The notes under the pieces were generated by a model. The model had not been told where the DNA came from and made no database searches. It saw only the letters and a program-made list of their open reading frames with translations. From an uncultured Bacteroidales bacterium (GTDB taxonomy: Bacteria > Bacteroidota > Bacteroidia > Bacteroidales > UBA932): a stretch of DNA of 37,237 nucleotides. The stretch lies in assembly GCA_946616385.1 (NCBI GenBank), contig CAMOIZ010000001.1:1-37237 (forward strand), written 5' to 3'. The translations under genes were made by a program, and so were the position numbers. Below are positions 732 to 37,237 of this stretch, in pieces (the stretch's first letter is position 1; every line of letters starts with the position of its first letter).

Positions 732-1426
732 CTGCGCTTGAATTCAGAAACGGTAATGGCGGTTGCAACGGAAACGTTCAGCGATTCCGAACCTCCGCCG
801 AAAGAGGGTATCGTGAGCCGGCAGTCACACTCGGCGGCAACCTCCCGGCTGATGCCGTTGGCTTCGTTGCCCATTACTATCAGGCCTTCACGAGGGAGTT
901 CGGATGCATAAATGTCGCTGCCGTCCAGGAAGGTGCCGAAGACGTGCAGGCCGGCGGCGCGGAATTCCTTGCATTTCTCCACTATGTCGCAGTAAATCAG
1001 CTTCTTGCGGAAGATCGCGCCCATCGACGCCTGAACCACCTTCGGATTATATACTTCGACGCTGTCGGGGGAGGCGAAGATGCAGTCCACGCCGAACCAG
1101 TCGGCGATGCGGAGTATGGTGCCCAGGTTGCCGGGATCGCGCACGGAATCAAGGGCGAGGCACAGACCGCCCGGAACATGCTCCGAAGGAGCGGGCTTGC
1201 GGACCACGGCAACTACGGGGGATGGGGAACTCATGGTGCTGATTCGCTCCATCAGCTTTTCTCCGACTTCATCCCGGCGAATTATCCTGACTATCCCGAA
1301 GCCGGACGACTCCGCTTCTGCCACCAGTTTTTCACCTTCGACCAGGAAGAGTCCGGATTCGTCCCTGTATTTCTTTTCGTGCAGCGCACGGATCTGTTTC
1401 AACTCGTTGTTGCTGATAGTTTCCAT
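722..1426 (-). CDS. TrmH/SpoU family RNA methyltransferase
   Basis: SPOUT motifs LDSVRDPGNLGTILRIADWFG, GNEANGIS and ESLNV. Start moved to METISNNELK (ATG 1426) because the longer ORF overlaps the divergent gene and promoter. Confidence 0.92.
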   Translation of the reverse strand: METISNNELKQIRALHEKKYRDESGLFLVEGEKLVAEAESSGFGIVRIIRRDEVGEKLMERISTMSSPSPVVAVVRKPAPSEHVPGGLCLALDSVRDPGNLGTILRIADWFGVDCIFASPDSVEVYNPKVVQASMGAIFRKKLIYCDIVEKCKEFRAAGLHVFGTFLDGSDIYASELPREGLIVMGNEANGISREVAAECDCRLTIPSFGGGSESLNVSVATAITVSEFKRRWK

Positions 1427-3657: not shown

Positions 3658-4947
3658 CTACTTTGTGTAATATTTGGGCCAGCAGGCCTGCAGATAAGCC
3701 TTCAGGGCATCTTCGTGCTTGTTGGGAGCAGGATGATAGAATACGTGTCCTTCAAGACCCGCGGGCATGAATTCCTGATCTACAAAATGTCCCGGATAGT
3801 CATGTGCATACTTGTATCCGTCGGAGTAGCCAAGTTCTGACATGAGCTTGGTGGGAGCATTGCGCAAGTGCAGGGGAACGGCGCGTGTCTTGTCGTCTTT
3901 GGCCACCTGCAGGGCTTCTTCCAGAGCCATATAGGAAGCATTGCTCTTTGGGGAAGAGGCCAGATACACGGTACATTCCGCAAGAGGTATCCTGGCTTCA
4001 GGCATGCCGATCTGGTTCACGACCTGGAAAGTGGCATTCGCCAGCAGCAGGGCATTCGGATTGGCGAGTCCGACATCTTCCGAAGCGCTAAGGCACAGGC
4101 GCCTTGCAATAAAAAGAGGATCTTCTCCTCCGTCCAGCATCCTGGCCAGATAATAAACCGCGGCATTTGGGTCGGATCCGCGTATGCTTTTGATGAACGC
4201 GGAGATGATGTCGTAATGCATTTCCCCGTCCTTGTCGTAGATGGCCACATTCTCGTTCAGGCAGGCGGTCACGGTCTTGTTGTCGACTACCGCCTTTTTG
4301 CTGCCGGCCTGGGAATCCACGACCAGTTCGAGTATATTCAAAAGCTTGCGCCCGTCGCCTCCGGACTGGCGGAAAAGAGCTTCGGTTTCCTTTACTTCTA
4401 TCTTACGTTCCTTCAGGATTTCATCGGTAGCCAAGGCCCTGTCGAGAAGCACTTTGAGATCGGCTGCCGCAAGGCTTTTGAGCACATAGACCTGACATCT
4501 GGAAAGAAGGGGAGTGATGACCTCGAAAGAGGGATTCTCGGTGGTCGCACCTATCAGCACCACCGTGCCTGCTTCAACTGCGCCGAGAAGAGCATCCTGC
4601 TGGGCCTTGTTGAAACGGTGTATTTCGTCGATGAACAGAACAGGTGCGGCGGTCTGGTTGAAAACACTTCCACCCTTGGCTGCGTCAATCACCTCCCGGA
4701 CTTCCTTGACTCCGGCACTGACTGCGCTCAAAGTGAAGAACTCCCTCTTGCAGGAATCTGCGATGATGCGTGCAAGGGTTGTCTTGCCCACACCGGGAGG
4801 CCCCCAGAGTATGAAGGAACTCAGGTTCCCGCTTTCGATCATATTCCGGAGTATGCATCCCTTGCCCACAAGATGCTGCTGCCCTACATAGTCGTCGAGG
4901 CTGTGAGGACGCATGCGTTCGGGAAGAGGAGGAAGAAGGCCGTTCAT
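3658..4947 (-). CDS. rarA: Replication-associated recombination protein A (MgsA/RarA AAA+ ATPase)
   Basis: ERMRP..LDDYVGQ, Walker A GPPGVGKTT, Walker B FIDEIHRFNKAQQD, GATTENPSF, SAFIKSIRGSD, SEDVGLA, VPLHLRNAPT. Confidence 0.96.
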   Translation of the reverse strand: MNGLLPPLPERMRPHSLDDYVGQQHLVGKGCILRNMIESGNLSSFILWGPPGVGKTTLARIIADSCKREFFTLSAVSAGVKEVREVIDAAKGGSVFNQTAAPVLFIDEIHRFNKAQQDALLGAVEAGTVVLIGATTENPSFEVITPLLSRCQVYVLKSLAAADLKVLLDRALATDEILKERKIEVKETEALFRQSGGDGRKLLNILELVVDSQAGSKKAVVDNKTVTACLNENVAIYDKDGEMHYDIISAFIKSIRGSDPNAAVYYLARMLDGGEDPLFIARRLCLSASEDVGLANPNALLLANATFQVVNQIGMPEARIPLAECTVYLASSPKSNASYMALEEALQVAKDDKTRAVPLHLRNAPTKLMSELGYSDGYKYAHDYPGHFVDQEFMPAGLEGHVFYHPAPNKHEDALKAYLQACWPKYYTK

Positions 4948-6086
4948 TATCTGATCTCCTTTTTATAAGAACGACGGCGTTTGTGCTGGATGCGGTCAAA
5001 ATCACCAAAGTGATTGCGAATACTGTGGTTGTCTTCCAACTCAGCATTGGTTTCAGCCCATTTCACGCCGAGTTTTTCGTATTTCTGGAACATGTCACAC
5101 ACCACGAGCGCCGTCACGCCAGAATTGCGCACGTCGGCCCTTGCGCCCATCAACAGAAGTTCAGCCCCTTCGCTATGCTTGATGAACAAGGCTTTGGCCA
5201 GATGCCACCAGCCGAAAGGGAAGAGACGCCCGCGCGATTTGATAAGGGCGTCTGCAAGGGAAGGCATGGTAATACCGAAAGCGACTATTTCGCCCTTGTC
5301 GTTCTCGACAGAAGTGATGTAGCGCAGGTCCAGAATCTTAAGGTAAAAACCTATGTACTTGTCTGCCAGGTTTTCCGGAAGCACGGTATATTCGTAAAGG
5401 TCTTTGTAAGAGTCGGTTATGAGAGAGAACAGCTTCTGTGCATAATTCTCTTTGCGGATGATCTTACGGGTTACGGGTCTGATCTTGAAATTGTTCCTCT
5501 CGGCAACGATCCGTGCTACCCGCGTAAACTTCTCGGGCATCGCTTCCGGTACGGTGATCCTGTATTCCAACCAGTCGGCATCCTTCTCGAAACCGAGGGC
5601 CTCGATGTGCTGCACATAGTAAGGATGATTATAAATGAGAGGCATGGTGCTCTGCTGGTCGAAACCTTCTACCAACATGCCTTCAGGATCGAAATCGGTG
5701 AAGCCGAGGGGGCCGACTATGTGTGTCATCCCATGGGCTTTTCCGAATTCTTCGACCTTGGCGATGAGGGCGGCGGAAACCTCCTTGTCGTCGATGGTGT
5801 CAAACCAGCCGAAACGCACTTCGTCATGCTTCCAGCGTTCGTTTGCCTTGTAGTTGATTATGCCTGCAATCCTGCCGACCGGCTTGCCATCGCGATATGC
5901 CATATAAAGCACTTGGTCGCAGAAATCCGATGCAGGATTCTTCTTTTCGTTGAGAGTATCCATCTCGTCGAAAACAATATTCGGCACATAGTATGGGTTA
6001 TGCCTATAAAGAGTCTCGGGGAAAAGGACAAACTTTCTCAATTCCGATCTCTTCGTGGAGTCGATCCTTACGATATCAACGCTCAT
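4947..6086 (-). CDS. GNAT-fold N-acetyltransferase (YghO-like conserved protein)
   Basis: GRIAGIIN, RFGWFDTIDD, GPLGFTDFDPEGMLVEGF, YNHPYY and PFGWWHL motifs typical of this family. Stop overlaps the rarA start. Confidence 0.8.
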   Translation of the reverse strand: MSVDIVRIDSTKRSELRKFVLFPETLYRHNPYYVPNIVFDEMDTLNEKKNPASDFCDQVLYMAYRDGKPVGRIAGIINYKANERWKHDEVRFGWFDTIDDKEVSAALIAKVEEFGKAHGMTHIVGPLGFTDFDPEGMLVEGFDQQSTMPLIYNHPYYVQHIEALGFEKDADWLEYRITVPEAMPEKFTRVARIVAERNNFKIRPVTRKIIRKENYAQKLFSLITDSYKDLYEYTVLPENLADKYIGFYLKILDLRYITSVENDKGEIVAFGITMPSLADALIKSRGRLFPFGWWHLAKALFIKHSEGAELLLMGARADVRNSGVTALVVCDMFQKYEKLGVKWAETNAELEDNHSIRNHFGDFDRIQHKRRRSYKKEIR

Positions 6087-6183: not shown

Positions 6184-6714
6184 GTGAAAATCCGGATTCT
6201 TGCTCTGACCATGTCATTTCTGCTCGCGGTGCAGTTCAATGCACACGCTCAGGGATGGTCGGCAGGATTATACAATTCTCTAAAAGGTATGGGAGTCAGC
6301 ATAGATTACAAGGCAAACGACGACATCTACAATTCCTTCACTCTGTTAGCCGACATGACAGGCATCTTCGGAGGCCGGTACACGGAGCCCGGAATAAAGA
6401 TGGTCTACCTGCATTACAACCGTCTCTCCGCCTTCAGCACGGAGCACGCCGATTTCGGCATTTTCCTCGCACCCGGAGCCAGCACCGGGCTGGTCAGGGA
6501 CCACGACACCGACAGCTTCGGCACCATACTCACGGCCGACATCGCTATCGCCTTGAATGCATGTTTCATCAGAAACATCGACATCGAGGTCGGATTCATG
6601 GCCGAGCTTGGATTCTTTGCCACAAGCACAGTCTCCGGCACCCAGATGAACATTTACGACAACGGCCTGCGCAAGGCCATGATTCCCAGTATCAAGCTAA
6701 TGTACCGATTCTGA
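6184..6714 (+). CDS. Hypothetical exported protein, probable small outer-membrane beta-barrel
   Basis: Signal peptide ending AHA-QG, alternating amphipathic strands, C-terminal KLMYRF. Start uncertain (GTG 6163, GTG 6184 or ATG 6211). Confidence 0.7.
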   Translation: MKIRILALTMSFLLAVQFNAHAQGWSAGLYNSLKGMGVSIDYKANDDIYNSFTLLADMTGIFGGRYTEPGIKMVYLHYNRLSAFSTEHADFGIFLAPGASTGLVRDHDTDSFGTILTADIAIALNACFIRNIDIEVGFMAELGFFATSTVSGTQMNIYDNGLRKAMIPSIKLMYRF

Positions 6715-7331
6715 TGAAAAAGACGGCCGCTTTCATAATGCTTCTCTTCCTGAGCCTGACGTCTCACGCCGGGGGGAGAGCTTTTCTCGACCGCTTCCAT
6801 CCCGGAATCGAATGGGGCTACAGTGCAACGCCGGCAAGGTATCATCACTTCAACTATCTCGACGAATCCATTGGTTTCCGTATCGACGAAGAAGCTTGGG
6901 AAAATGATTGCGTTTCGAATGCTTATTTCCTCGGTAAATTGTCTTTCGATATCAGCCGTTCCTTGAGAATCAGTGCCATAAGCGGCTATGAGGGCGTTGA
7001 TACCGGAGTTTGTGCCATTCCTCTCTCCGGACGGATGGAATATGCTTTCAGCGGCTTTGGAACAGACGGTTTCCTGGTTTTCGTAGGGGCCGGAGCAGCA
7101 TTCATCTCCGCCAACACAAGCAGGCAAGGCAATCGATTCGAAATCGGCGCCGGCTACCGCTATACGCTTGCTCCACACACCTCCCTTGGCATTCGCGTGG
7201 GCGGGAGGATGATTACGGATAAGCCGGACGTATGGGATCCGATCTCCGAACAATACATTTCAGAGCGCAATATCAAGCGTAACGACGCCAGATACTACGC
7301 TCTGGAAATAGGTATTGAACTATCTTTCTAG
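6714..7331 (+). CDS. Hypothetical exported protein, probable outer-membrane beta-barrel
   Basis: Real start MKKTAAFIMLLFLSLTSHA at ATG 6714, overlapping the upstream TGA. Strand-like segments FVGAGAAF and EIGAGYRY; C-terminal LEIGIELSF. Confidence 0.75.
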   Translation: MKKTAAFIMLLFLSLTSHAGGRAFLDRFHPGIEWGYSATPARYHHFNYLDESIGFRIDEEAWENDCVSNAYFLGKLSFDISRSLRISAISGYEGVDTGVCAIPLSGRMEYAFSGFGTDGFLVFVGAGAAFISANTSRQGNRFEIGAGYRYTLAPHTSLGIRVGGRMITDKPDVWDPISEQYISERNIKRNDARYYALEIGIELSF

Positions 7332-12474: not shown

Positions 12475-12502
12475 CAAATATAATCAGATTTTATTATTTT
12501 TG
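12475..12502. promoter_or_regulatory. Divergent -7 promoter elements (TATATTTG on - at 12475-12482; TATTTTTG on + at 12495-12502)
   Basis: Both match TAnnTTTG inside a 39-bp gap between divergent ATGs. Confidence 0.65.
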
Positions 12503-20704: not shown

Positions 20705-21010
20705 TCAGTCTTCTATCTGGAACAGATTCAGGAAACCGGTCATCATGAACACATTGCGGATGTCGTTGCTGATGCCTTTCACTATTACCTTTCCGCCTTT
20801 GGCCGCGGCCGCTTTGCGGAGAGTAAGGAATATTCTGAGTCCGGAACTGGAAATGTAATCCATCTTGCTGCAATCCAGCACGATGGTTCCTCCGGCGTCA
20901 TCCTGCACGCCTTCCAGTGTTTTACTGACCTCAAGCGAAGCCGGAGTATCCAGCCTGCCAACAAGTTCCACGATCGTAATGCCGTCTTTTTTATTGATAT
21001 TCACTTCCAT
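20705..21010 (-). CDS. STAS domain protein (anti-anti-sigma factor, SpoIIAA/RsbV-like)
   Basis: 101 aa; GRLD, VLDCSKMDYISSSGLR (phospho-acceptor Ser motif), VFMMTGF. Confidence 0.93.
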   Translation of the reverse strand: MEVNINKKDGITIVELVGRLDTPASLEVSKTLEGVQDDAGGTIVLDCSKMDYISSSGLRIFLTLRKAAAAKGGKVIVKGISNDIRNVFMMTGFLNLFQIED

Positions 21011-21013
21011 ATA

Positions 21014-23209
21014 TCAGATAGTTTTAGTCATGAAAAGAATGTTTTTGTCACCATCGCGCTTGTATTCTACGCTGTCCATGATTTTGCGTACGAGGAAGAT
21101 TCCCAGGCCGCCTATTTGCCTTTCTTCGACTCCAAGGGTGGTGTCGGCTTCAGGGGCCGCGGTAGGATCGAATGGCGTGCCGGAATCGCTGATGATGAAC
21201 TCCAGCTGATTGCTGCGAATTATTGCTTCGATGTCCACAAGGCCGTCGGTCTTGGGAGGGTAGGCATACATGATGACGTTGGTAACCGCCTCTTCCAGAG
21301 CGAGATTCAGATTCATTGCGCAACCCTGGTCGAGTCCGGCTTCGTCGGCTATGGTCTCCACGAATTCCGCCAACTGGGGAATCTGCTGGATGTCGTTGTG
21401 GAGGATCAGATGCCTTTCCTTCTGGTCGGGCAGCGACTCGGGCAGGAAATGGACGAAGAGCATGGTCATGTCGTCGCTTTGAGGAGCGTCACCCACGAAC
21501 TCGCGAACGGCTTCCTTAATGGCAACCATCTGATCGTCGGAACTGCGGCGCGTGGAAAGCACTTTGTCCATCCTCTTTTCGCCGAACAATTCGTGAGAGA
21601 GGTTTTCCGCCTCGGTAAGTCCGTCGGTATAAAGGAACATGGCATCGTCGTAATGCAAGTCGATCTCCTGTTCCTTGAAGTTGAAGCCCGGCATCACGCC
21701 GAGAGGCAGGTTGGCCTCGACCGGCAAAGGACGCTTGGCGTCGGTAAGCAGGATGGGCGCATTGTGCCCGGCGTTGCAGTATTTGAGATGTCCGGTGGCA
21801 AGATCGAGGATTCCTATGAAGAAGGTCACGAACATGTTGCTCTCGTTCACCTCCGACATGGAATCGTTCATGGTGGTGAGGATGCGCTGAGGAGATGACT
21901 CGTGCGCGGAAACCGTGCGGAATAGACTCCTGGTGACGGCCATCACCAATGAGGCGGGCACACCCTTGCCGCTCACGTCACCTATGCAGAAAATAAGTTT
22001 CTCGTCGCGGATATAGAAGTCGTAAAGGTCGCCGCCGACCTCCTTCGCGGGGACTATGGCTGCAGAAAGGTCGAGATCCTTCCTCTCCGGGAAAGGAGGG
22101 AAGATCTTGGGGATCATCGACATCTGTATTTCGCTGGCAATGTGGAGTTCGCTCTCGATGCGTTCCTTGCGGTCGTTGAGATCCATGAACTTCAACTGAT
22201 TGACCATCAGAGCCCTGAGTATGAGAATCAGCATCAGCAGACCGAGCAACTGGAGAAGTTTCACGATCAAGCCCATCCTGCGGATGTTGCCGTAGATCTC
22301 GGAATCAGGCACCATTATCGACATCGACCAGCCGGTTTTCTCGACAGGGGCGTAGAAGATGTGGGTGACATCTTTATTGTAACGGATGACTGCGCTGCCA
22401 CGTTCACCGGCGAGCATCGAACGGTTGACCCCGGAGAAGGCGGATGTGTCGTCCATGTCGGCGATCACCTCCTGTGCAGTCCTGCGCATGACCAGCGACT
22501 CCGCGGGGCAGACCATGATCTGGCCACTGCGGCTGATCATCATGCTGTAGGCGTTGGGATAAACCTGCACGTTGCCGACAAGATCGGTAAGCCAGTCGAG
22601 CGAGATGTCGGCGGTTAGAACTCCGGCGATGCGCCCGTATCTGTCACGCAGGGGATAGGAGTAGGTAGTCATCAGGATATCTCCGCCACCCACGTCGATG
22701 TATGGCTCTGACCAGTATCCGCACTGCTCTTCGAGAGGTTTTATGAACCACTCCTGAGCGGGATAATTGTATTCGTCGGTTGCAAGGCTGGAAACCCGTA
22801 TTCCGGTTTCGCCGGGGGCCTGAAAACAGTAAGGCGAGTAGAGGGGATGCTTCTTGTCGTATCCGGGCACCAGGGCGATGGTGGAACCGACGATCACGGG
22901 ATTGTTCTCGACGATGCGGCGCGAAACGGCATAGAGGCTGTCCGGCGTTTCTAGGGCCCACTGGGCGAGCCAGATGCTGTTCCGTACTGCGACCTCGGCC
23001 TGGTCGACGATGTTCACGATCTTGAGTTTGGTGGCTTCCAACTGGCTTTCGGCACGCCTCGTGGCCTCTTCCTTGATGCCCTTCTGCGAGAAATAGTACT
23101 GCACTATCCCCGTGGCCTCAAGGGTGATGGCGGCTACGATTACCAGAAGCAGACCGGCCCTTGCCGATTGCTTCAGGAAAACCTTGTTGACGGAATCTTT
23201 CAGTTTCAT
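21014..23209 (-). CDS. Membrane sensor fusion: dCache domain + SpoIIE/RsbU PP2C phosphatase + RsbW-like HATPase_c kinase
   Basis: TM - Cache (WF...WSEPYID...TADIS) - TM. PP2C motifs VGGDLYD, IGDVSGKG, FVT, NAGH, YTDGLTEA, SDDMT. GHKL motifs LEEAVTNVIMYAY, DSGTPFDP, GGLGIFLV. Confidence 0.92.
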   Translation of the reverse strand: MKLKDSVNKVFLKQSARAGLLLVIVAAITLEATGIVQYYFSQKGIKEEATRRAESQLEATKLKIVNIVDQAEVAVRNSIWLAQWALETPDSLYAVSRRIVENNPVIVGSTIALVPGYDKKHPLYSPYCFQAPGETGIRVSSLATDEYNYPAQEWFIKPLEEQCGYWSEPYIDVGGGDILMTTYSYPLRDRYGRIAGVLTADISLDWLTDLVGNVQVYPNAYSMMISRSGQIMVCPAESLVMRRTAQEVIADMDDTSAFSGVNRSMLAGERGSAVIRYNKDVTHIFYAPVEKTGWSMSIMVPDSEIYGNIRRMGLIVKLLQLLGLLMLILILRALMVNQLKFMDLNDRKERIESELHIASEIQMSMIPKIFPPFPERKDLDLSAAIVPAKEVGGDLYDFYIRDEKLIFCIGDVSGKGVPASLVMAVTRSLFRTVSAHESSPQRILTTMNDSMSEVNESNMFVTFFIGILDLATGHLKYCNAGHNAPILLTDAKRPLPVEANLPLGVMPGFNFKEQEIDLHYDDAMFLYTDGLTEAENLSHELFGEKRMDKVLSTRRSSDDQMVAIKEAVREFVGDAPQSDDMTMLFVHFLPESLPDQKERHLILHNDIQQIPQLAEFVETIADEAGLDQGCAMNLNLALEEAVTNVIMYAYPPKTDGLVDIEAIIRSNQLEFIISDSGTPFDPTAAPEADTTLGVEERQIGGLGIFLVRKIMDSVEYKRDGDKNILFMTKTI

Positions 23210-24036
23210 AATATGGAGGCTAGGGCCGCCCTGAATTCAGGCATCGGCCGTTTTGTGTCCCGTTCTATGATAATGGTCTTGAGCCCGGCATAAGGGCGTA
23301 TCAGTTCTTCGGCCTCCGCTATGCTTGTGCCTTCTCCGAAATAAGCCGGCACAAAACTCTGCCAGAACCTGATGGAAAGGGACTTAGGCATGTGGAAAGT
23401 CTCCTTGATAAAGGCCTCGTCGCTCAGGCAGCAGCAAACGAACACCATCCCTAAGTCGAAAAGGTGATTTCCGTAGCAGAAATCGCCAAGGTCGATGAAA
23501 TAGCGCTTGTCGCCGGCAAATATCGCATTGCTGAACTGAAGGTCGCCATGGATGGCGGTGGATTCGTCGGGAGTATCGGATATGAACTTGCCTATCTTGT
23601 CTTTTTCGGCACTGCTGAAGAAAGGATTAGCGGCAAGCAGGCGATAGTAGCGATCCTTGACGTTCTCAAACTGGGTGGTATCTACCTTGGTTGCGTGCAG
23701 CCCGAGGCACATCCGGGCGAATTCGGATGCGAACCGGTCCAGTTTTTCCGGTTCGTCCGCAGTTGCCCTGGAATAGGACTTCTTTCCAAGTATACGGTGG
23801 AAACGGATGCCGTAGCGTCCGTCTTCTGTGACCACGTATTCTCCCGGTTCGGGCGTTGGAATGCCCAGGTCATAGACCTTGCGGGCAAGCAGCATCTCAT
23901 CCAGCGGCTGCTGAATCTTGCCGGGGAAGTACAGCTTGAGCATCACGGACGGGTCCGTCTTGTGATCGTAGCTTTCGCCGTTTGCGCCTCCTCCCGAGAG
24001 GACATAGTCGTCGAGGGAAATTTTCAGTGCTTCCAT
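23206..24036 (-). CDS. APH/choline-kinase-fold phosphotransferase (TIGR02172-like)
   Basis: Gly-rich loop GGGANGESY, LKLY lysine, catalytic HGDLQFSN, metal-binding IDLGDF, FDLG. Confidence 0.85.
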   Translation of the reverse strand: MEALKISLDDYVLSGGGANGESYDHKTDPSVMLKLYFPGKIQQPLDEMLLARKVYDLGIPTPEPGEYVVTEDGRYGIRFHRILGKKSYSRATADEPEKLDRFASEFARMCLGLHATKVDTTQFENVKDRYYRLLAANPFFSSAEKDKIGKFISDTPDESTAIHGDLQFSNAIFAGDKRYFIDLGDFCYGNHLFDLGMVFVCCCLSDEAFIKETFHMPKSLSIRFWQSFVPAYFGEGTSIAEAEELIRPYAGLKTIIIERDTKRPMPEFRAALASIL

Positions 24037-24602
24037 ACCTGATTGATCAACGATTCGAATTCTTTGAATGCAAAAGTGTCGCTGAGATCACGGAGTGAAT
24101 CAGCGAGTCCACGGTAATGCCACTCGTGGTCGGCGGGATCCTTAGCGTGGAAAATGTTCCAGAAGGCATCTCCCATCACTGCGTAGTCCCTTGCAATGGC
24201 TCGCATGTTGGAGAGTTTGTCGCCCAGAGCGACGATCTTGGCATCGTGAGAGGCGCCGGCAAGACGGTCGATGGCCGCCTGCTTGCGGCTGCGCCAGCTG
24301 TCTTCCTCGCTCACGCCCTCTTCGAAAACATCGCTCTCCGAAGCCACCAGCCCGGCAATTCTAGGCCCGAATTCGCTGCGTAGTTCTTCGACTGTCACAT
24401 CGGTATCTTCCACGACGTCGTGAAGCACGGCGGCGGCAAGCAGTTCCTGATCGGAGGTCATGGTGGCCACTATCCCTGCGGCCTCCATGGGATGAATGAT
24501 GTAAGGGAACCCCTTGCCCCTGCGCTCGGTACCGGCGTGGGCTTTAACCGCGAAGATCGCAGCGCGGTCGAACAGGGAAGTGTCGAGATGCTTATTTGCC
24601 AT
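24024..24602 (-). CDS. Small alarmone hydrolase (Mesh1/SpoT-type HD domain)
   Basis: AH...R...PYIIHP, LHDVVEDT and DKLSN are the RSH hydrolase motifs; stand-alone 192-aa protein. Confidence 0.9.
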   Translation of the reverse strand: MANKHLDTSLFDRAAIFAVKAHAGTERRGKGFPYIIHPMEAAGIVATMTSDQELLAAAVLHDVVEDTDVTVEELRSEFGPRIAGLVASESDVFEEGVSEEDSWRSRKQAAIDRLAGASHDAKIVALGDKLSNMRAIARDYAVMGDAFWNIFHAKDPADHEWHYRGLADSLRDLSDTFAFKEFESLINQVWKH

Positions 24603-25233
24603 AATTGATATAGTTCAATATCAGTTCCACGGCTCCGTCCTCGGAGATATTGTCCATGTTGATTACGAGGTCGTAATTGCGGGAGTCGTAGCGGCTCTTG
24701 CCGGAATAGTGCGATACATAGTTCTCGCGCATCTTGTCGACCTTCGCGATCACTTCTTCAGCCTCTTTTTCACTGAGGTTCTGCTTCTCCATCACACGCT
24801 TGACACGGTTGACAGGCGATGCGGTGATGAACACGTCCACCTTGTTGGGGCAGTTCCTGAGCACGAAGAAACCGGAACGTCCGGCAATCACGCAAGAGCC
24901 TTCCTCGGCAAGTTGCATGAGGATTTCGGATTCTATGCGGAACACTCTGTCGCCAATGGTTTCGGACTGATAGATGTTCACCGTGGATCCAATCGCACCT
25001 GCCTGCGGCACAGGACTGACCTTCTCGAGAATGTCGGTGAGCCAGTTCTTCTTTTCGCCCTTGATCCTTTCTATGTTCTCGACCGAAAGGCCGAAAGTGT
25101 CGACCAGTTTGTCGATGAGCTGCTTGTCGCAATAGCGTACACCGAGTTTTTCGGCAAGCTTGCGTCCTACGGTACGTCCTCCGGATCCGACTTCGCGGCT
25201 GATGGTGATGACAAATTTTTCGTTGGTGTTCAT
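24592..25233 (-). CDS. Cytidylate kinase-like family P-loop protein
   Basis: ITISREVGSGGRTVGRKLAEKLG, GSCVIAGR, D..R..Y, YDLVIN match the Cytidylate_kin2-type pattern. Confidence 0.88.
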   Translation of the reverse strand: MNTNEKFVITISREVGSGGRTVGRKLAEKLGVRYCDKQLIDKLVDTFGLSVENIERIKGEKKNWLTDILEKVSPVPQAGAIGSTVNIYQSETIGDRVFRIESEILMQLAEEGSCVIAGRSGFFVLRNCPNKVDVFITASPVNRVKRVMEKQNLSEKEAEEVIAKVDKMRENYVSHYSGKSRYDSRNYDLVINMDNISEDGAVELILNYINYGK

Positions 25234-25243
25234 ATTCTGTAAA

Positions 25244-26299
25244 CTATTGGTTCATGAAAGGTAGGTCTTTGGCCTGTTCCATAAGTAATTCGGCCATGAA
25301 TTCGTTGCTTTCGGATTCTCCGTTGAGAGCGTCGAACAGGCGCTTGATGCCGGCCTTGCCCCATCCCATCTTGAGAATATAGGCGATGCAGAGGTCCTGC
25401 GGGCCGAGCGACGAGGATATGATGTCGAGGTCGGTAAGACCGATCTGGTAGCAGGCAATCTGGTAGGCACCGTCGGAAAAGGCCTTGATGAGTTTGTCGA
25501 TATCTCCCAAAGTCTTGAAATTCAAGGCCTTGAATACGGAAAGATACGGCATGAGGGATGTATCCTGAATCTCCGCCTGGTTCACGGCGGCAATTTTGCG
25601 GTTCAGCGGAGTGAAAGGCTCGAGGTCCAGATAGCTGCGGAACGTGTCGCCGTCGAGGGGGACCTCGTCCAGATTTCCGGAAGCGACCAACGCCTGAACC
25701 CTTCGGCGGTAATCGGTGAGTTCGGTGCGTATCAGACTGAACTGCTCGTCCACCAGTTCAAGCATGCCGGCAAGACGGCTCAGGTTGCGTAGATACTCTT
25801 TCGGTACCTCCACGCCGCTCTTGTAGCCGGTGTCGTGGTTCATGTTGGCCCAGGCATGCTGCAGGACTGTACGCATCTGTATTTCGAAACGGTAGGGGAA
25901 ACCCTTCACCGAACAGATGTAATGCAGTGACAGATAACCGAAGCTGTCGATTTCGTGAAGCTTGCGCTTGTCGACACTGTTGTCCCAGTCGACATCGAAA
26001 AGACGCTCTACGGCAGAGGCCACCTTGTCGACATCGTCGATGTAGAAAGTGATTACCCGCAGGCCCAGGATGTCGGTGATATCGGCGAGGGACTTGTATT
26101 TGGAACCCTTCAGCTCAAGTTTCCCGGCAAGGGATTCTTCGCTCTTGACCCTGTATTCGATAGCCGCCACAAGCAGACCGGCCTCGGCGAAAGTTTTCTT
26201 CAAAAGGTCGTAAACTTCCGTAGCCGTGTTGCGGAAGGAGGGGAGATTGTCGCGATATTCCTCGAGAATCGCCTGACAGTGTGGATCAAGTTGAGTCAT
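25244..26299 (-). CDS. Small alarmone synthetase (RelA/SpoT nucleotidyltransferase domain) with ~150-aa C-terminal extension
   Basis: RVKSEESL..K, DILGLRV, GYLSLHY and FEIQMRTVLQHAWA...HD.GYK form the complete synthetase motif set. No HD, TGS or ACT domains. Confidence 0.92.
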   Translation of the reverse strand: MTQLDPHCQAILEEYRDNLPSFRNTATEVYDLLKKTFAEAGLLVAAIEYRVKSEESLAGKLELKGSKYKSLADITDILGLRVITFYIDDVDKVASAVERLFDVDWDNSVDKRKLHEIDSFGYLSLHYICSVKGFPYRFEIQMRTVLQHAWANMNHDTGYKSGVEVPKEYLRNLSRLAGMLELVDEQFSLIRTELTDYRRRVQALVASGNLDEVPLDGDTFRSYLDLEPFTPLNRKIAAVNQAEIQDTSLMPYLSVFKALNFKTLGDIDKLIKAFSDGAYQIACYQIGLTDLDIISSSLGPQDLCIAYILKMGWGKAGIKRLFDALNGESESNEFMAELLMEQAKDLPFMNQ

Positions 26300-26307
26300 A
26301 TAACCTA

Positions 26308-26333
26308 CAAATTTAATAAAATGCTTAATTTTG
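26308..26333. promoter_or_regulatory. Divergent -7 promoter elements (TAAATTTG on - at 26308-26315 for the alarmone operon; TAATTTTG on + at 26326-26333 for mntP)
   Basis: Both match TAnnTTTG inside a 48-bp AT-rich gap. Confidence 0.65.
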
Positions 26334-26347
26334 CAAAAAAAAGATTG

Positions 26348-30194: not shown

Positions 30195-31328
30195 ATGAAA
30201 AAGAAAGCGACACCCATAATCATAGTGCTGCTGTTGCTTGCGGCCGGAGCCGTGCTTTACTTCTCGCTGAAGGGCAAGAAGGCACCGGTCGTAGCCGAGC
30301 CTCCGGTGCAATATGTGTCCGACATCATTTCAGGCATCGACTCCGACAGCCACAAGCTGATTTCGGAGTACGATCCGGCCGACTCCAAGAAAGCGATCTT
30401 CATTTTCGGATCCAAGTCCCGCACAAGCGACATCGCCCAGGCTTTGCTGGAGAGCGACGACTTCGACAACGTGGACGGTTCCTCAAAACCTGACGGGCTG
30501 AAAGACCTCGCAGGCGAGACGATCTGCACCGTCGCCAACTTCTCCAACTTCGGGGAAATGGTGAACGACGGCCGCCTCGACGACCTCAGGGAACTTACGG
30601 CCCGCAACGTGCTGGCAGCCATGGACACGCTCTGCTACGTCAGCCCGTACGACCGAAGCGGAATGGGCAAGAAGCCCCTCGCAAAGATGATCGTCCTGGG
30701 ATCCGCGTGCATGACGCAATACGGACGCTACGACATCGATTCCCTGTTCAGCGCGCTTGGCTGCAACATGCCGGTGATTTCGCCCATGCAGCTGATAGTC
30801 GACGAAGCCATAGAGTCGGCAAGAGGAAAGAAAGTGCTGAACGTTGGCGTGCTCGCCGGCAACGCACCTGTCGACCTCTATGCACCGTACATACGCAAAC
30901 AGGCCGCGAAGGCGCAGATCGACAGCGTGCTTTGCGTAGGATACAAAGTCCCAGCAGGGGAGGATCCGCTGCTGTCGTTCCTCGATCATTACGCCGAGTT
31001 CGGCATTACCAGTCCGCTGGACGTGATCCTGGTCGACGACATGAAAGTGGACATTTCCCAATTCAGGGCCAGCCTCGAGTTGATTACATCAGTAATGAAC
31101 GCCGAATCGCTGACATACGGCAACATGGTGTCTCCCAAATTCAAGGTGATAGATTCCCGCAGCCGCACCTGTCATGCCGTTTACGGCTTACTCAGGCAGA
31201 AAAACCTGTTTACACACTATATTTCTCAGCCACGCCTGCTCGACTACATGCTCATCACCCGCGAGGGCATCGACAAAGAGTTCATGCTGCTGCAGTACAA
31301 CGAAAGATATATTCCTAACGCCAATTAA
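30195..31328 (+). CDS. Membrane-anchored hypothetical protein, apparent degenerate Asp/Glu-racemase homolog
   Basis: N-terminal TM anchor. FDNVDG..KPDGL.D.AGE, LRELT and KMIVL..A recall the Bacteroidales glutamate-racemase-like scaffold, but the catalytic motifs are absent. Confidence 0.6.
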   Translation: MKKKATPIIIVLLLLAAGAVLYFSLKGKKAPVVAEPPVQYVSDIISGIDSDSHKLISEYDPADSKKAIFIFGSKSRTSDIAQALLESDDFDNVDGSSKPDGLKDLAGETICTVANFSNFGEMVNDGRLDDLRELTARNVLAAMDTLCYVSPYDRSGMGKKPLAKMIVLGSACMTQYGRYDIDSLFSALGCNMPVISPMQLIVDEAIESARGKKVLNVGVLAGNAPVDLYAPYIRKQAAKAQIDSVLCVGYKVPAGEDPLLSFLDHYAEFGITSPLDVILVDDMKVDISQFRASLELITSVMNAESLTYGNMVSPKFKVIDSRSRTCHAVYGLLRQKNLFTHYISQPRLLDYMLITREGIDKEFMLLQYNERYIPNAN

Positions 31329-33288: not shown

Positions 33289-33828
33289 TCAGCGCTCCTT
33301 CTTGTGCAGCTTGCTGTAAAACTTTACACCACTCACAAGGCTGCCGAACTGCGACTTGGGCACGTCGGTCGCCCTGATGTATCCCTCTCTTTCCACGCTG
33401 AACATTAGCGAGTGGCTGAGAAGGGCTTTCCGGTGCGATACCTTCACGACCTCGAACTTGTCGTTCGGGAAACCGAAGGCGAGGCAGCCGATGAGTTCGA
33501 TCTCCGTACCGGGGGCCTGTTTGAAAAGTTCCTGCATCCTCTGCAGATTCGCGAGAGCCTCGGTGAGATTACTGCCGAGCGGAAGGAACAATTCGAAAGC
33601 AGGATCAAATAGAATCTGGACTACTTCGTCGCCGAATCCGAGATGTCCGACAGAGAGCCAGTAGGCATTTTTGCCGTCTTTCGGACTGTTGAAAACCTCA
33701 AACTCGCTTGCTACGTTTTCTTCGTCTTCAACGGTGGCAATTTCCAGTCTCTGGGGAATCTTGGACAACTGTGCATTAGCGTTCAGCGCCATCACAAGCA
33801 CGGTTAGAATGCAAAAAAACTTTTTCAT
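33289..33828 (-). CDS. Hypothetical exported protein
   Basis: Signal peptide MKKFFCILTVLVMALNANA-Q from ATG 33828; no recognisable motif. Confidence 0.7.
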   Translation of the reverse strand: MKKFFCILTVLVMALNANAQLSKIPQRLEIATVEDEENVASEFEVFNSPKDGKNAYWLSVGHLGFGDEVVQILFDPAFELFLPLGSNLTEALANLQRMQELFKQAPGTEIELIGCLAFGFPNDKFEVVKVSHRKALLSHSLMFSVEREGYIRATDVPKSQFGSLVSGVKFYSKLHKKER

Positions 33829-33862
33829 GCCTGAAAGATTTGCAATTATTGTACCAGTATTT

Positions 33863-34534
33863 TTATTCGATCTCCTTGCCGGCACCCCAGGCCTTTCCTA
33901 CAACATCTCCAAGAGCGCGGTAGCACACGCCTGCGGCATCGAAAACTATTGGTTTGAGAAGAGCGAGATCTACCTGGCCGGCCTCATTGAGAATGCTCTT
34001 GTCGGCGCTCTGGTTGACTACTTCGCCGATCAGGCATCCGTCCTTGAAACTGATGACCTTGCACTCGAGGGTGAGGGGGTACTCGTTGATGATGGGAGCG
34101 TTGACATTGGGGCTGGGGGTGACGGTGAAACCTGCCCTGGCAACTTTGTCGGGCACATTCTTGCCGCTCACCATTCCTAAATAGTCGCTCTCCTTGACGG
34201 TGCGCTCGTCGGCAAAGCTGACTGTGAAAGCTCCGGTGAGTTCAAGATTGTCGGTGGTCTGATGCTTGGAAAGGCTGATCACGATCTCCTTGGCATCGTA
34301 CTGACCGGCCCATGCGGCCATCATGACGTCGGGGTTCTTGTCTTTGTCCCAAGTGGCAATCATCACGCAAGGCTGAGGCGTGGTCACAAGGGCATGGTTG
34401 GGGCCGAAATTCTTGCGTCCGGCCACTTCCTGGAGTGGAGTGTTGTTCATGTTATCTGTTTGATTGTTGGTTTTGCCGGAATTTGTGCAACAGGCAAGTG
34501 CCAAAACAGCTGCGAACAGAGTGATGTGTTTCAT
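33863..34534 (-). CDS. Flavin reductase family (flavoredoxin-like) protein with lipoprotein-like N-terminus
   Basis: PQPCVMIAT, AFTVSFA, DYLGMVSG, APIINEYPLTLEC, IGEVV; N-terminal MKHITLFAAVLALAC. Confidence 0.88.
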   Translation of the reverse strand: MKHITLFAAVLALACCTNSGKTNNQTDNMNNTPLQEVAGRKNFGPNHALVTTPQPCVMIATWDKDKNPDVMMAAWAGQYDAKEIVISLSKHQTTDNLELTGAFTVSFADERTVKESDYLGMVSGKNVPDKVARAGFTVTPSPNVNAPIINEYPLTLECKVISFKDGCLIGEVVNQSADKSILNEAGQVDLALLKPIVFDAAGVCYRALGDVVGKAWGAGKEIE

Positions 34535-35025: not shown

Positions 35026-36156
35026 ATGCGATTGAATTTAAAGAAACTATTTGTCCTTGCCGCCATCTTCACAATATGCGGCTGCGTCACATCCTCGCTC
35101 GTTTCGTGCTCGAAAGGCGACGATGAGCACATCGTCCATTCCACACCCCTGCGCTCGATCATCACAGGCATGGACTATGGCGACGGAGTATTTGTCGTGG
35201 GGCACAAAAGCCCCGACTGTGATGCCGTCTGCTCGGCCATCACCTACGCCGACCTGCTGCAGCGTCTGGGGATCAACGCCCAGGCCCGGGTGGCGGGCAA
35301 GCTCATCTGCGAACCTCTCTATGTCATTCAGGAAGCAGGTATCAGCGCTCCTCCGATCCTGGAAGATGCCACTGGCCTGAACATGATCATGACCGACCAC
35401 AGCGAGTATGCGCAGGCGGTGAATGGCATGGCACAGGCCCGAGTCCTGCATGTCATCGACCACCATGGCACCGGCACAGTAACCACGGCGCATCCGCTGT
35501 TCTACTATGCCCTTCCTATCGGCTCCACCTGCACGATAATCGCTTCGATGTATGAAGAACTGGGCGAGAATCCCACGCCTACCCAGGCGCGGCTGATGCT
35601 CTCCGGCCTGCTTTCCGACACCGACAACCTTAAATCGACCACCACTACCGACACGGACCGCAAGTATTACTCCTGGCTGCTCGACCGCTCGGACATCACC
35701 GACGTTGAATCGTATTATGCCGCCATGAACAAGGCCCGGACCTCCTTCGACGGCATGACCGATGAAGATATCCTGCTCTCCGACTACAAGGAGTACGAGA
35801 TTGAGGGCGTGAAACTCGGCATCGGAAGTGTGCTCGCTAGCGAGAAACTGGGGGTTGAAGAGCTTTGCCGCCGGATGCGAGGGGTAATGCCCGCAGTCCG
35901 GGAGCAGCGTGGCCTCGACATGCTGTTCATGATGCTTGGAGACCGCGACGCGGGCCTCACCCACGTGCCCTTCTGCGGTGAAGGAGCAAAGATTGTTGCG
36001 GAGTACGCCTTCAAGAGTGCGGCCACGGAAGACGGCTGCATCGTCACGAGCTATATCCCCAGCCGGAAGGCCAATTTCGTCCCCGCCATAACGGAAGGGA
36101 TTGCTTATTGGAAGAATAAACCTGATGAGACTATGAAAATACACTTCCAGCCTTAA
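35026..36156 (+). CDS. DHH/DHHA2 family II (Mn-dependent) inorganic pyrophosphatase-like protein with lipoprotein signal
   Basis: GHKSPDCDA, TDHSE, IDHH, PIGSTCT, LLSDT, DYKEY, SRK; N-terminal hydrophobic segment ending LVSC. Confidence 0.85.
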   Translation: MRLNLKKLFVLAAIFTICGCVTSSLVSCSKGDDEHIVHSTPLRSIITGMDYGDGVFVVGHKSPDCDAVCSAITYADLLQRLGINAQARVAGKLICEPLYVIQEAGISAPPILEDATGLNMIMTDHSEYAQAVNGMAQARVLHVIDHHGTGTVTTAHPLFYYALPIGSTCTIIASMYEELGENPTPTQARLMLSGLLSDTDNLKSTTTTDTDRKYYSWLLDRSDITDVESYYAAMNKARTSFDGMTDEDILLSDYKEYEIEGVKLGIGSVLASEKLGVEELCRRMRGVMPAVREQRGLDMLFMMLGDRDAGLTHVPFCGEGAKIVAEYAFKSAATEDGCIVTSYIPSRKANFVPAITEGIAYWKNKPDETMKIHFQP

Positions 36157-37237
36157 TGCACCGCATCATCTTCCATATAGATGTGAACTCCGCGTTCCTC
36201 AGTTGGTCTGCGGTGAAGATGGTGCGCGAGGGGATGCCGGACATACGGCTGGTGCCTTCGGTGGTGTCCGGCGATCCTTCCGACCGCAGGAGCATCATCA
36301 CGGCCGCATCCATCCCTGCCAAGAAGCTGGGTATCAAGACGGCGCAGCCGGTGTCGATGGCGCTGCGCACATGCCCGTCGCTGGTGATTGTGAGAGGGGA
36401 CTGGGCCTGGTACAAAACCTGCTCGCAGGGCTTCATTTCCATCTGCCGGAGCTACTCCCCGGTGCTGCAACAGTTCTCCATCGACGAGTGCTTCATCGAC
36501 ATGACCTTCCGCTGCAAAGCGGGAAACGCCGTGGAAGTGGCCACCCGGCTCAAGGAAGAGGTAAAATCCAAGCTGGGATTCACAGTGAACGTGGGTATAG
36601 GTTCCAATAAGCTGCTGGCGAAGATGGCTTCCGACTTCGAGAAACCGGACAAAGTGCATACCCTCTGGGATAGCGAGGTGCAGGAAAAGATGTGGCCTCT
36701 GGGAGTGCGGGACCTTCTTTGGGTGGGGAAGAAGACCGAAGAACGCCTCACCGCGAACGGAATACATACCATAGGCCAGCTGGCACAACTCGGCATGGGC
36801 TCACTCACGCAATTGGTGGGGCAGAAGTTCGCCATGCAGCTGCACGAAAATGCCAACGGGCGGGACGACACCCCGGTGGAAACGGAGGTGCCCGAGGCCA
36901 AGAGTTACAGCGCCGAGCGCACCTTCTCCAAGGATCTGACGGATCCAAAGGACATCGACCGGGCGCTGTTCAATGTGGCCTGCATAGTCGCACACAGGAT
37001 CAGGCGCGACAAATTCCGGGCGTCGACGGTGTCGATGTTCATTAAATACAAGGACTTCTCGGTGGTGCAGAAGCAGTGCCGGACCGACCAGCCTACAGAC
37101 GTGACGGCCGTCATCCTGAACGAAGCCAGAAGGCTGCTCGCGGAGGTTTGGGACGGGCGGACTCCCATTCGGCAGGTGGGGCTTGGCGTGAGCAAACTCA
37201 CGCATGAATCGGCCATACAGATGTCCCTGTTCGAGGA
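36156..37237 (+). CDS. dinB: DNA polymerase IV (Y family); runs off window end
   Basis: Manual translation from ATG 36156 gives MHRIIFHIDVNSAFLSW...SIITAAS.PAK..GIKT...QFSIDECFIDMT...NKLLAKMASDFEKP...LLWVGKK, ending in clamp-binding-like QMSLF. Absent from the ORF track because there is no stop in the window. Confidence 0.95.
   Translation, partial: MHRIIFHIDVNSAFLSWSAVKMVREGMPDIRLVPSVVSGDPSDRRSIITAASIPAKKLGIKTAQPVSMALRTCPSLVIVRGDWAWYKTCSQGFISICRSYSPVLQQFSIDECFIDMTFRCKAGNAVEVATRLKEEVKSKLGFTVNVGIGSNKLLAKMASDFEKPDKVHTLWDSEVQEKMWPLGVRDLLWVGKKTEERLTANGIHTIGQLAQLGMGSLTQLVGQKFAMQLHENANGRDDTPVETEVPEAKSYSAERTFSKDLTDPKDIDRALFNVACIVAHRIRRDKFRASTVSMFIKYKDFSVVQKQCRTDQPTDVTAVILNEARRLLAEVWDGRTPIRQVGLGVSKLTHESAIQMSLFE

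What the first reader, a model, noticed from the sequence alone, without database searches (positions are those of the whole stretch)
20705..26299. Candidate undescribed signalling system: alarmone synthetase + hydrolase + two small-molecule kinases + sensor/PP2C/anti-sigma-kinase + STAS in one operon
Seen in sequence: six minus-strand genes in the order SAS, cytidylate-kinase-like, Mesh1-like HD, APH-fold phosphotransferase, dCache-PP2C-HATPase, STAS. Junctions are a 10-nt gap, 11-, 13- and 4-nt overlaps and a 3-nt gap, behind one TAAATTTG promoter element, and catalytic motifs look intact in every enzyme. Established: SAS/SAH enzymes make and break (p)ppGpp/(p)ppApp-type nucleotides; PP2C/RsbW/STAS trios form phospho-Ser partner switches. 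Inference: a writer, an eraser, two nucleotide or metabolite kinases and an extracytoplasmic sensor together suggest a dedicated nucleotide second-messenger circuit controlled by a periplasmic ligand, separate from ribosome-linked Rel. I do not recognise this combination as a characterised system.
Basis: partly seen in the sequence, partly recalled or inferred. Interest (0 to 1): 0.85.

Follow-up and report, generated by a model that had tools for sequence, protein, structure and literature searches.

The report
Phospho-switch docking on alarmone synthetase
Many rumen and gut bacteria keep a membrane sensor, its small phosphorylation-switch (STAS) protein and an enzyme pair that likely makes and destroys a stress nucleotide in one gene cluster, and the switch protein is predicted to dock on a special tail of the synthetase, which would be an undescribed way for an outside signal to control alarmone synthesis.

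Summary
The six genes, junctions and motifs are real, but the unit is not six genes. The conserved core is a tailed small alarmone synthetase (likely MixRel), STAS and an RsbW-type kinase, usually with PP2C and HD hydrolase. Of 50 de-duplicated loci: RsbW 45, STAS 44, PP2C 42, HD 40, APH kinase 40, cytidylate-kinase-like 7, sigma factor 1. In 36 same-genus genomes all 16 with the synthetase have STAS; 16 of 17 with STAS have the synthetase. The core recurs in Clostridia: STAS in 11 of 13 loci with the tail, 0 of 8 without. A complex model places STAS, phospho-serine face first, on the tail's most conserved segment (score 0.79, best control 0.02; mark reached by 116 of 157 solved, 2 of 215 mismatched pairs). 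Best reading: a sigma-less partner switch gating an alarmone synthetase, like SiaABC-SiaD. Binding, direction of control, product and kinase substrate are untested. The scan found this cluster before in other genomes. My literature searches found no description.

The parts
26308..26315 (-). TAnnTTTG promoter-like element 8 nt before the synthetase start, in a 45-nt gap shared with the divergent mntP gene
   Evidence: consensus recalled; not specific to this operon
25244..26299 (-). Small alarmone synthetase, 351 aa, likely MixRel subfamily: catalytic domain (aa 1-199) plus a C-terminal tail. Core.
   Evidence: Pfam RelA_SpoT 69.8 bits; fold closest to RelP/RelQ, Z 19; R50, K52, D76, Y122, E139, H155 invariant in 34 sequences; pattern matches mixRel rows of PMC7229694 Dataset S5
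25247..25702 (-). Helical tail domain of the synthetase (aa 200-351), no Pfam family; predicted STAS-binding domain
   Evidence: model pLDDT 91.7, pTM 0.87; interface
25397..25456 (-). Predicted docking segment (aa 282-301); T289, D292 and I293 invariant in 95 Bacteroidales sequences
24592..25233 (-). Cytidylate-kinase-like P-loop protein, 213 aa. Optional member.
   Evidence: Pfam Cytidylate_kin2 167 bits; 14 of 100 loci; 7 of 50 de-duplicated loci
24024..24602 (-). Small alarmone hydrolase (RSH-type HD domain), 192 aa. Usual member.
   Evidence: Pfam HD_4 75 bits; closest solved relatives 7qoe, 4yf1, 7qoc; 40 of 50 loci
23206..24036 (-). APH-fold kinase, TIGR02172-like, 276 aa, substrate unknown. 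Usual in Bacteroidales, mostly missing in Clostridia; found fused to synthetase or hydrolase elsewhere.
   Evidence: (226.2 bits against a cut-off of 228.2)
21014..23209 (-). Membrane sensor, 731 aa: two hydrophobic segments flanking a dCache domain (aa 41-310), PP2C phosphatase (345-590), RsbW-type kinase (598-731). Kinase and phosphatase are core; the sensor domain varies.
   Evidence: clostridial versions carry 5TM-LYT instead
20705..21010 (-). STAS switch protein, 101 aa; S55 (20846-20848) aligns with the SpoIIAA phospho-serine. Core.
   Evidence: TIGR00377 67.5 bits against a cut-off of 53.45; alignment to SpoIIAA; S54 and S55 invariant in 80 sequences; only STAS found in this 53% complete genome

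Best explanation
This is a conserved cluster of a membrane sensor with phosphatase and RsbW-type kinase domains, a STAS protein, a tailed alarmone synthetase and its hydrolase, in which unphosphorylated STAS is predicted to dock on the synthetase tail and likely switches alarmone synthesis on. Steps: (1) the RsbW domain phosphorylates STAS S55 and the PP2C domain reverses it (inferred from family knowledge; motifs shown); (2) a periplasmic ligand, possibly a small amine, tips the balance (inferred); (3) dephospho-STAS binds tail residues 282-301 and 322-338 with the face that carries S55 (predicted); (4) binding activates the synthetase (inferred; about 2:1 over inhibition); (5) the product is most likely (p)ppGpp (about 70%) and the HD enzyme resets it (inferred). 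The APH kinase is a Bacteroidales add-on acting on the same pathway, and the cytidylate-kinase-like protein and K+/H+ antiporter are optional.
For: Co-inheritance: synthetase in 16 of 36 same-genus genomes, STAS and PP2C each in those 16 plus G033, APH in those 16 plus G012, none of the four in 18. Linkage despite shuffled order: 33 of 37 fully flanked GTDB loci hold all five genes; sigma factor within 8 kb in 1 of 50. Second phylum: STAS in the locus for 11 of 13 clostridial synthetases with the tail, 0 of 8 synthetases without it. Complex model: score 0.79, best of 3 controls 0.02; the mark was reached by 116 of 157 solved complexes and 2 of 215 mismatched pairs (counts hold only roughly, own alignments); runs agree in at least 96% of contacts, partner pLDDT at least 88; D292, L291 and I293 touch S55. 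I had found segment 285-304 as the most conserved part of the tail (0.89 against 0.73-0.78) before the model was run. Residues 289-298 stay 60-70% identical in nine related clostridial proteins whose tails are 25% identical. For activation: RsbW and STAS stay beside the synthetase in loci where no PP2C is adjacent (L036, L092, L103, L233), which is safe if kinase action means off. Precedent: unphosphorylated SiaC binds and activates SiaD (PMC8457831).
Against: No binding, activity or phosphorylation has been measured. The STAS face used is the one STAS proteins generally use for partners, so the model may lean on that. Conservation of the predicted interface on the synthetase side is only 0.835 against 0.77 for the rest of the tail (p 0.065). 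In three clostridial proteins (L230-L232) the docking segment is only 20-30% identical, and two of them have no STAS in the locus. Six of 88 well-flanked loci lack a nearby STAS, though all six genomes have one elsewhere. Kin are not independent: nine of the 11 positive clostridial loci are close relatives. The opposite polarity has precedent: HsbD binds phosphorylated HsbA (PMC5085249). The G-loop tyrosine does not separate ppGpp makers from tRNA-modifying toxins (bioRxiv 2021.04.30.441581).
Confidence: 0.5

Rival explanations
1. Same docking, opposite sign: dephospho-STAS is an inhibitor (antitoxin-like) of an otherwise active or toxic synthetase; phosphorylation by the RsbW domain releases it and the HD enzyme is a second safeguard, as in three-gene FaRel modules.
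For: The complex model gives no sign of control. SAS + binding partner + SAH is the FaRel layout (PMC7229694). HD is kept in 40 of 50 loci. The catalytic domain hits PADLOC candidate PDC-S33 (E 2e-14, aa 11-151 only).
Against: Fold is closer to RelP/RelQ (Z 19) than to CapRel (11.7), Tas1 (11.2) or FaRel2 (8.2). Loci with kinase and STAS but no adjacent phosphatase would default to on. HD is missing from some intact loci (L068, L092, L120). Phage and plasmid hits are all under 60% identity and mostly cover only the catalytic domain.
Confidence: 0.25
2. STAS acts through another partner (the APH kinase, the antiporter or a distant sigma system), and the synthetase is only co-regulated; the predicted complex is a false pass.
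For: STAS-APH fusions exist in distant paralogues (L127, L129; weak STAS scores). APH fuses with the synthetase in both orders and with HD. G033 has STAS and PP2C without the synthetase. Only one complex job was available, so STAS-APH was not modelled.
Against: The STAS-RsbW-synthetase link persists where APH was not found (10 of 13 clostridial genomes). Synthetases without the tail had no STAS nearby (0 of 8). Sigma factor near 1 of 50 loci (profile from five sigma factors of this genome only).
Confidence: 0.15
3. One reading: a fixed six-gene circuit in which both small-molecule kinases feed or modify a dedicated nucleotide messenger.
For: The cytidylate-kinase-like gene recurs at different positions in the cluster (before the synthetase, after it, after STAS) at 52-63% identity, so it is a linked optional part. 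APH fusions tie that kinase to both RSH enzymes.
Against: Cytidylate-kinase-like gene in 2 of 37 fully flanked loci and none of the 13 clostridial loci. No substrate evidence for either kinase; best solved relatives of the APH profile are weak (E about 1e-5).
Confidence: 0.06

Closest known systems
SiaABC-SiaD of Pseudomonas aeruginosa (PMC8457831 abstract and section 8; PMC7647112 abstract)
   Same: PP2C phosphatase and kinase set the phosphorylation of a STAS-like protein; the unphosphorylated form binds a second-messenger synthase through the phospho-acceptor face and activates it; no sigma factor.
   Different: Output there is a diguanylate cyclase bound on a stalk helix. Here it is an RSH synthetase with a predicted docking tail, paired with its own hydrolase. 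Kinase and phosphatase are usually one polypeptide, and the acceptor is Ser. SiaA model scores 51.5 against a cut-off of 700.
HptB-HsbR-HsbA-HsbD of P. aeruginosa (PMC5085249 passages) and SypE-SypA of Vibrio fischeri (PMC8256260 passages)
   Same: One protein carries both phosphatase and kinase for a stand-alone STAS that is itself the output.
   Different: Input there is a receiver domain (recalled for SypE), not a periplasmic dCache. HsbD binds phospho-HsbA; SypA's target is unknown. No alarmone enzyme is involved.
RsbU-RsbV-RsbW-SigB and SpoIIE-SpoIIAA-SpoIIAB-SigF (PMC8256260 part 1 of 5)
   Same: Same three domain families; S55 aligns with SpoIIAA S58.
   Different: No linked sigma factor (1 of 50 loci); linked RSH enzymes instead.
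MixRel / MixSpo subfamilies and toxSAS modules of Jimmy et al. 2020 (PMC7229694 passages, section 6, searches in Datasets S2, S4, S5)
   Same: The catalytic-loop pattern matches rows labelled mixRel. Prevotella ruminicola 23, P. brevis P6B11 and Fibrobacter succinogenes S85 are listed with MixRel + MixSpo.
   Different: MixRel is not mentioned in the main text or in the flanking-gene dataset. No function, tail or STAS link is given. STAS rows in that dataset belong to the toxSAS and PhRel sheets.
RelP/RelQ small alarmone synthetases
   Same: Closest solved fold for the catalytic domain (Z 18.7-19.1, rmsd 2.0-2.5 A over 174-185 residues).
   Different: They lack the 150-aa tail; the YjbM model scores 50.7 against a cut-off of 320.

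Membership tests
Small alarmone synthetase (RSH) | RelA_SpoT catalytic domain with intact motifs, no HD/TGS/ACT | tested here: met
Small alarmone synthetase (RSH) | Makes (p)ppGpp | not testable with these tools
   Needs an assay; fold is nearest RelP/RelQ
MixRel subfamily | Placement by the authors' HMM or tree | tested here: inconclusive
   Read by eye: three mixRel rows share the loop pattern, and the Fibrobacter row closely matches module-type proteins; HMM not available
RelQ/YjbM equivalog NF053588 | Score above curated cut-off | tested here: not met
   50.7 against 320
toxSAS toxin-antitoxin module | Toxic synthetase neutralised by a neighbour | not testable with these tools
   Needs expression tests
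toxSAS toxin-antitoxin module | Two- or three-gene arrangement | tested here: not met
   Five to seven genes in most loci
Small alarmone hydrolase | Stand-alone RSH HD domain with intact metal and catalytic motifs | tested here: met
Small alarmone hydrolase | Subfamily (Mesh1-L, MixSpo) assignment | not tested
   MixSpo is suggested only by co-listing with MixRel in rumen species
TIGR02172 phosphotransferase | Score above curated cut-off | tested here: inconclusive
   226.2 against 228.2 over the whole model; Atlas neighbours carry that name
RsbU/V/W-type partner switch | PP2C, RsbW-type kinase and STAS with the conserved serine | tested here: met
RsbU/V/W-type partner switch | Linked sigma factor as output | tested here: not met
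   1 of 50 loci within 8 kb; none among window proteins scanned; unlinked sigma factors exist
SiaABCD | SiaA orthology | tested here: not met
   NF038263 51.5 against 700
SiaABCD | Diguanylate cyclase as linked output | tested here: not met
   No GGDEF among the six genes; a Cache-GGDEF gene does lie two genes upstream in one clostridial lineage
SiaABCD | Unphosphorylated STAS binds the output enzyme | tested here: inconclusive
   Predicted only
dCache_1AA amino-acid sensor | Arginine two residues before the pocket tryptophan | tested here: not met
   Q152 here; Q, K, M or L commonest in 125 homologues
dCache_1AM amine sensor | Full amine motif | tested here: inconclusive
   W154, F155, Y170, M180, T182 and D201 match by spacing, and 3LIB is the second-best solved relative; no counterpart seen for PctD W155 or R103/D133

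The most novel reading that the evidence does not exclude
A new class of signal-gated alarmone system spread over at least two and probably four gut phyla: interchangeable membrane sensors (dCache, NMT1-assisted dCache, 5TM-LYT) set STAS phosphorylation, STAS docks on a dedicated tail to switch a MixRel synthetase, and in Bacteroidales the fused or linked APH kinase converts the product into a nucleotide other than (p)ppGpp that serves as a private messenger, with the TrkA_C-bearing K+/H+ antiporter as a target.
Probability: 0.12. Interest if true: 0.92.

Novelty: new variant of a known kind. Interest (0 to 1): 0.75.

Why it matters
Small alarmone synthetases are known as constitutive or allosteric enzymes, or as toxins held by antitoxins. 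I found no report of one controlled by a receptor-driven phosphorylation switch. If the docking model holds, it gives a function to an unstudied synthetase subfamily and a new tail domain, names the missing target for a sigma-less STAS switch, and shows how rumen bacteria could turn an outside chemical into a stringent-type response without the ribosome. It is directly testable with two small soluble proteins and named residues (S55; D292, I293). Cultured rumen species are listed with MixRel + MixSpo (P. ruminicola 23, F. succinogenes S85), although I did not check their gene neighbourhoods.

Tried and rejected
(1) Tail as a mimic of the STAS phospho-site: a STAS-site profile scored the tail above only about 97-98% of background (14 of 618 genome ORFs and 31 of 1000 shuffles reached it), and the complex model explains the conservation as a docking site. 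Dropped. (2) Fold searches with the tail alone gave no clear match: Foldseek best E 1.4, VIA-align best Z 4.3 among 48,161 chains; Atlas best 0.77. This shows neither a new fold nor absence of relatives. (3) Co-transcription: contigs from sheep-gut RNA libraries bridge all five internal junctions, but neighbouring DNA is covered as patchily and one run spans the divergent promoter, so DNA cannot be excluded. Not used as evidence. (4) Promoter and terminator scan was at chance level (9 against 7.4; 9 against 9.5). (5) Mobility: 66 plasmid and 16 phage records hit, all under 60% identity and mostly the catalytic domain only; GC is flat across the cluster. (6) PADLOC: no hit for HD, APH, sensor or STAS; weak domain-level hits for the synthetase and the cytidylate kinase. 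(7) APH substrate: no close solved relative. T289 of the synthetase is Ala in the nine clostridial proteins lacking a close APH and Thr in the one that has it, but this is too few independent cases. (8) No synthetase-STAS fusion among 7 longer relatives (weak evidence). P0125 looks like a chimera with an amidohydrolase and was ignored. (9) A tree of 169 catalytic domains put all 45 motif-bearing sequences in one clade (support 0.97) that also holds 24 without the motif, many apparently truncated; not resolved further. (10) Literature searches with no description of the system; subscription-only papers are not covered, and Dataset S2 of PMC7229694 was cut when stored.


Full report
Observation. 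Pfam and NCBIfam agree with each label, and the APH protein is nearly a TIGR02172 member (226.2 against 228.2 bits). Catalytic motifs are conserved across 74-95 homologues per family. Tight spacing is not special here: three housekeeping genes follow STAS at gaps of 3, 2 and 0 nt, and all three accompany the module in only 3 of 100 loci. The genome is a 53% complete assembly, its relatives are mostly rumen Bacteroidales by record title, and it has two long RSH genes elsewhere.

What is conserved. In 100 loci anchored on the synthetase (the window, 19 regions of related genomes, the best 80 of 312 genome-contig hits; some short, some duplicates) PP2C was in 88, HD 87, APH 87, STAS 81 and the cytidylate-kinase-like gene 14. 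Of 37 GTDB loci with full 10-kb flanks, 33 hold all five, 25 a K+/H+ antiporter and 2 the cytidylate kinase. Of 17 fully flanked metagenome loci, 17 have HD, STAS and PP2C and 16 have APH. After keeping 88 loci with at least 6 kb on both sides and collapsing them at 85% identity to 50, the counts within 8 kb are RsbW 45, STAS 44, PP2C 42, HD 40, APH 40, antiporter 14, cytidylate kinase 7, tyrosine-phosphatase-like 5, sigma factor 1. Gene order varies widely, so this is more than inherited synteny. All six loci without a nearby STAS have one elsewhere in the genome.

Presence and absence. Among 36 same-genus genomes (61-98% complete) the synthetase is in 16. STAS and PP2C are each in those 16 plus G033, APH in those 16 plus G012 (for G019 only a distant paralogue), and 18 have none of the four. 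Kin are not independent, so no test is quoted. The module is patchy in the phylum: 6 of 401 genomes matched at E 1e-20, and only G135 besides the own genome had a full-length relative, again in the module.

A second phylum. A profile search found a large family of ~360-aa synthetases; only a subset carries the tail motif. Members with the motif are named from Olsenella intestinalis, Lachnospiraceae and Clostridiales; their neighbourhoods were not seen. A search of 399 genomes in the class of G460 gave 16 hits; proteins from these loci carry Clostridia, Oscillospiraceae and Lachnospiraceae labels. Of 13 loci whose synthetase has the tail, 11 have STAS in the locus (in L225 it is a second STAS 8 kb upstream, the contig ending after HD), and 10 have an RsbW and/or PP2C domain. 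Of 8 synthetases without the tail (three from this class, five from Bacteroidota), none has STAS, RsbW or PP2C nearby. Nine of the 11 are close kin. The clostridial sensor has 5TM-LYT in place of dCache. A TIGR02172-like kinase was not found in 10 of these 13 genomes, was weak in 2 and clear in 1. The irreducible core is therefore tailed synthetase + STAS + RsbW kinase.

Fusions. The APH kinase is fused after the synthetase (P0121, P0123, P0124), before it (P0122), after HD (L038, L241) and, in distant paralogues, after a weakly scoring STAS (L127, L129). This ties it to the pathway but gives no substrate.

Structure. The synthetase model (pLDDT 87.4, pTM 0.63) has a catalytic domain nearest RelP/RelQ (Z 18.7-19.1) ahead of CapRel (11.7), Tas1 (11.2) and FaRel2 (8.2), then a 41-residue helix and a tail that folds confidently alone (pLDDT 91.7). 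Segment 285-304 is the most conserved part of the tail (0.89 against 0.73-0.78). The one complex job, synthetase with STAS, was run afterwards and passed: score 0.79, best of 3 controls 0.02. The mark was reached by 116 of 157 solved complexes and 2 of 215 mismatched pairs (only roughly applicable, as my own alignments were used). Runs agree in at least 96% of contacts and partner pLDDT is at least 88. The interface is tail residues 245-251, 282-301 and 322-338 against STAS 54-62 and 80-101; L291, D292 and I293 touch S55, which aligns with SpoIIAA S58. A phosphate there would likely clash with D292 (inference). Residues 289-298 are 60-70% identical in nine clostridial tails that are 25% identical overall, but only 20-30% in three others. 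Across the whole predicted interface, conservation is clearly higher on STAS (0.878 against 0.685) and only marginally on the synthetase (0.835 against 0.77, p 0.065). The model supports binding; it does not show it.

Mechanism. Shown: the genes, motifs, linkage, fusions and conservation. Predicted: the STAS-tail complex. Inferred: that the RsbW and PP2C domains act on S55, that a ligand biases them, that dephospho-STAS is the binding form, and that it activates. I favour activation about 2:1 because RsbW and STAS stay beside the synthetase where no PP2C is adjacent (L036, L092, L103, L233), genomes can carry several PP2C paralogues, and SiaC works this way. HsbA-HsbD shows the opposite polarity is possible. 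The dCache pocket lacks the amino-acid motif arginine and has part of the amine motif, so a small amine is a lead only. In 14 of 100 loci an NMT1/THI5-type binding protein lies in the cluster, in most gene orders directly before the sensor.

Comparison and novelty. It works like SiaABC-SiaD but is not a member (SiaA model 51.5 against 700, no cyclase). The synthetase is likely MixRel, a subfamily catalogued in the datasets of PMC7229694 but absent from its main text and flanking-gene tables. The STAS review PMC8256260 has no mention of ppGpp or alarmones. Searches found no description; subscription papers are outside the library. Papers seen: PMC7229694 (passages, section 6, term searches in supplements), PMC3153485 (passages), PMC8457831 (abstract, section 8), PMC7647112 (abstract), PMC8256260 (part 1 of 5, passages), PMC5085249, PMC11245519, PMC10589655 and bioRxiv 2021.04.30.441581 (passages; its supplements are closed). 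Earlier notes of this scan describe the same cluster in other genomes; I count them as leads, not support. In the lines shown, none reports the docking model.

Verdict. Observation confirmed; interpretation partly supported. A real, widespread and apparently undescribed variant of the partner switch whose likely output is an alarmone synthetase. Interest 0.75.

Noticed in passing
L061:5878-7380 and 40 other loci: NhaP-type K+/H+ antiporter with a TrkA_C domain sits inside or beside the module in 41 of 100 loci, at several positions; absent from this window's cluster.
   Followed up: partly
L054:4785-5744; L138; L139: NMT1/THI5-like binding protein directly before a dCache-PP2C sensor, also in genomes of other families where the synthetase was not found, next to an amino-acid ABC transporter.
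   Followed up: partly
L136:7302-8102; L130; L124; L036; L190: Tyrosine-phosphatase-family (Y_phosphatase3) genes recur next to TIGR02172-like kinases or the module, suggesting a kinase/phosphatase pair on a shared substrate.
   Followed up: partly
L223:7632-8588, L223:2229-2855, L223:8592-10163: The clostridial cluster has two conserved genes with no Pfam hit (318 aa before the synthetase, 208 aa after the sensor), a Cache-HAMP-GGDEF gene and a second STAS.
   Followed up: no
L040:3090-5804: 904-aa RelA_SpoT-TPR-RyR fusion in G059.
   Followed up: no
L230:652-2145: RsbW-type kinase fused to an acyltransferase-3 domain between STAS and a PP2C gene.
   Followed up: no
L116: A contig in a record titled uncultured Ruminococcus sp. 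carries the six-gene cluster at 59-93% identity to the window; misbinning or recent transfer.
   Followed up: no
window 26300-26344: Overlapping divergent TAnnTTTG elements serve the synthetase and mntP in a 45-nt gap; similar back-to-back pairs lie near 12482/12495, 27296/27309 and 1439/1471.
   Followed up: partly
window 90-911, 4947-6086, 6255-7331, 30195-31328, 33289-33885, 36153-36788, 36801-37205: Long ORFs with no Pfam hit; the rest of the window is housekeeping.
   Followed up: no
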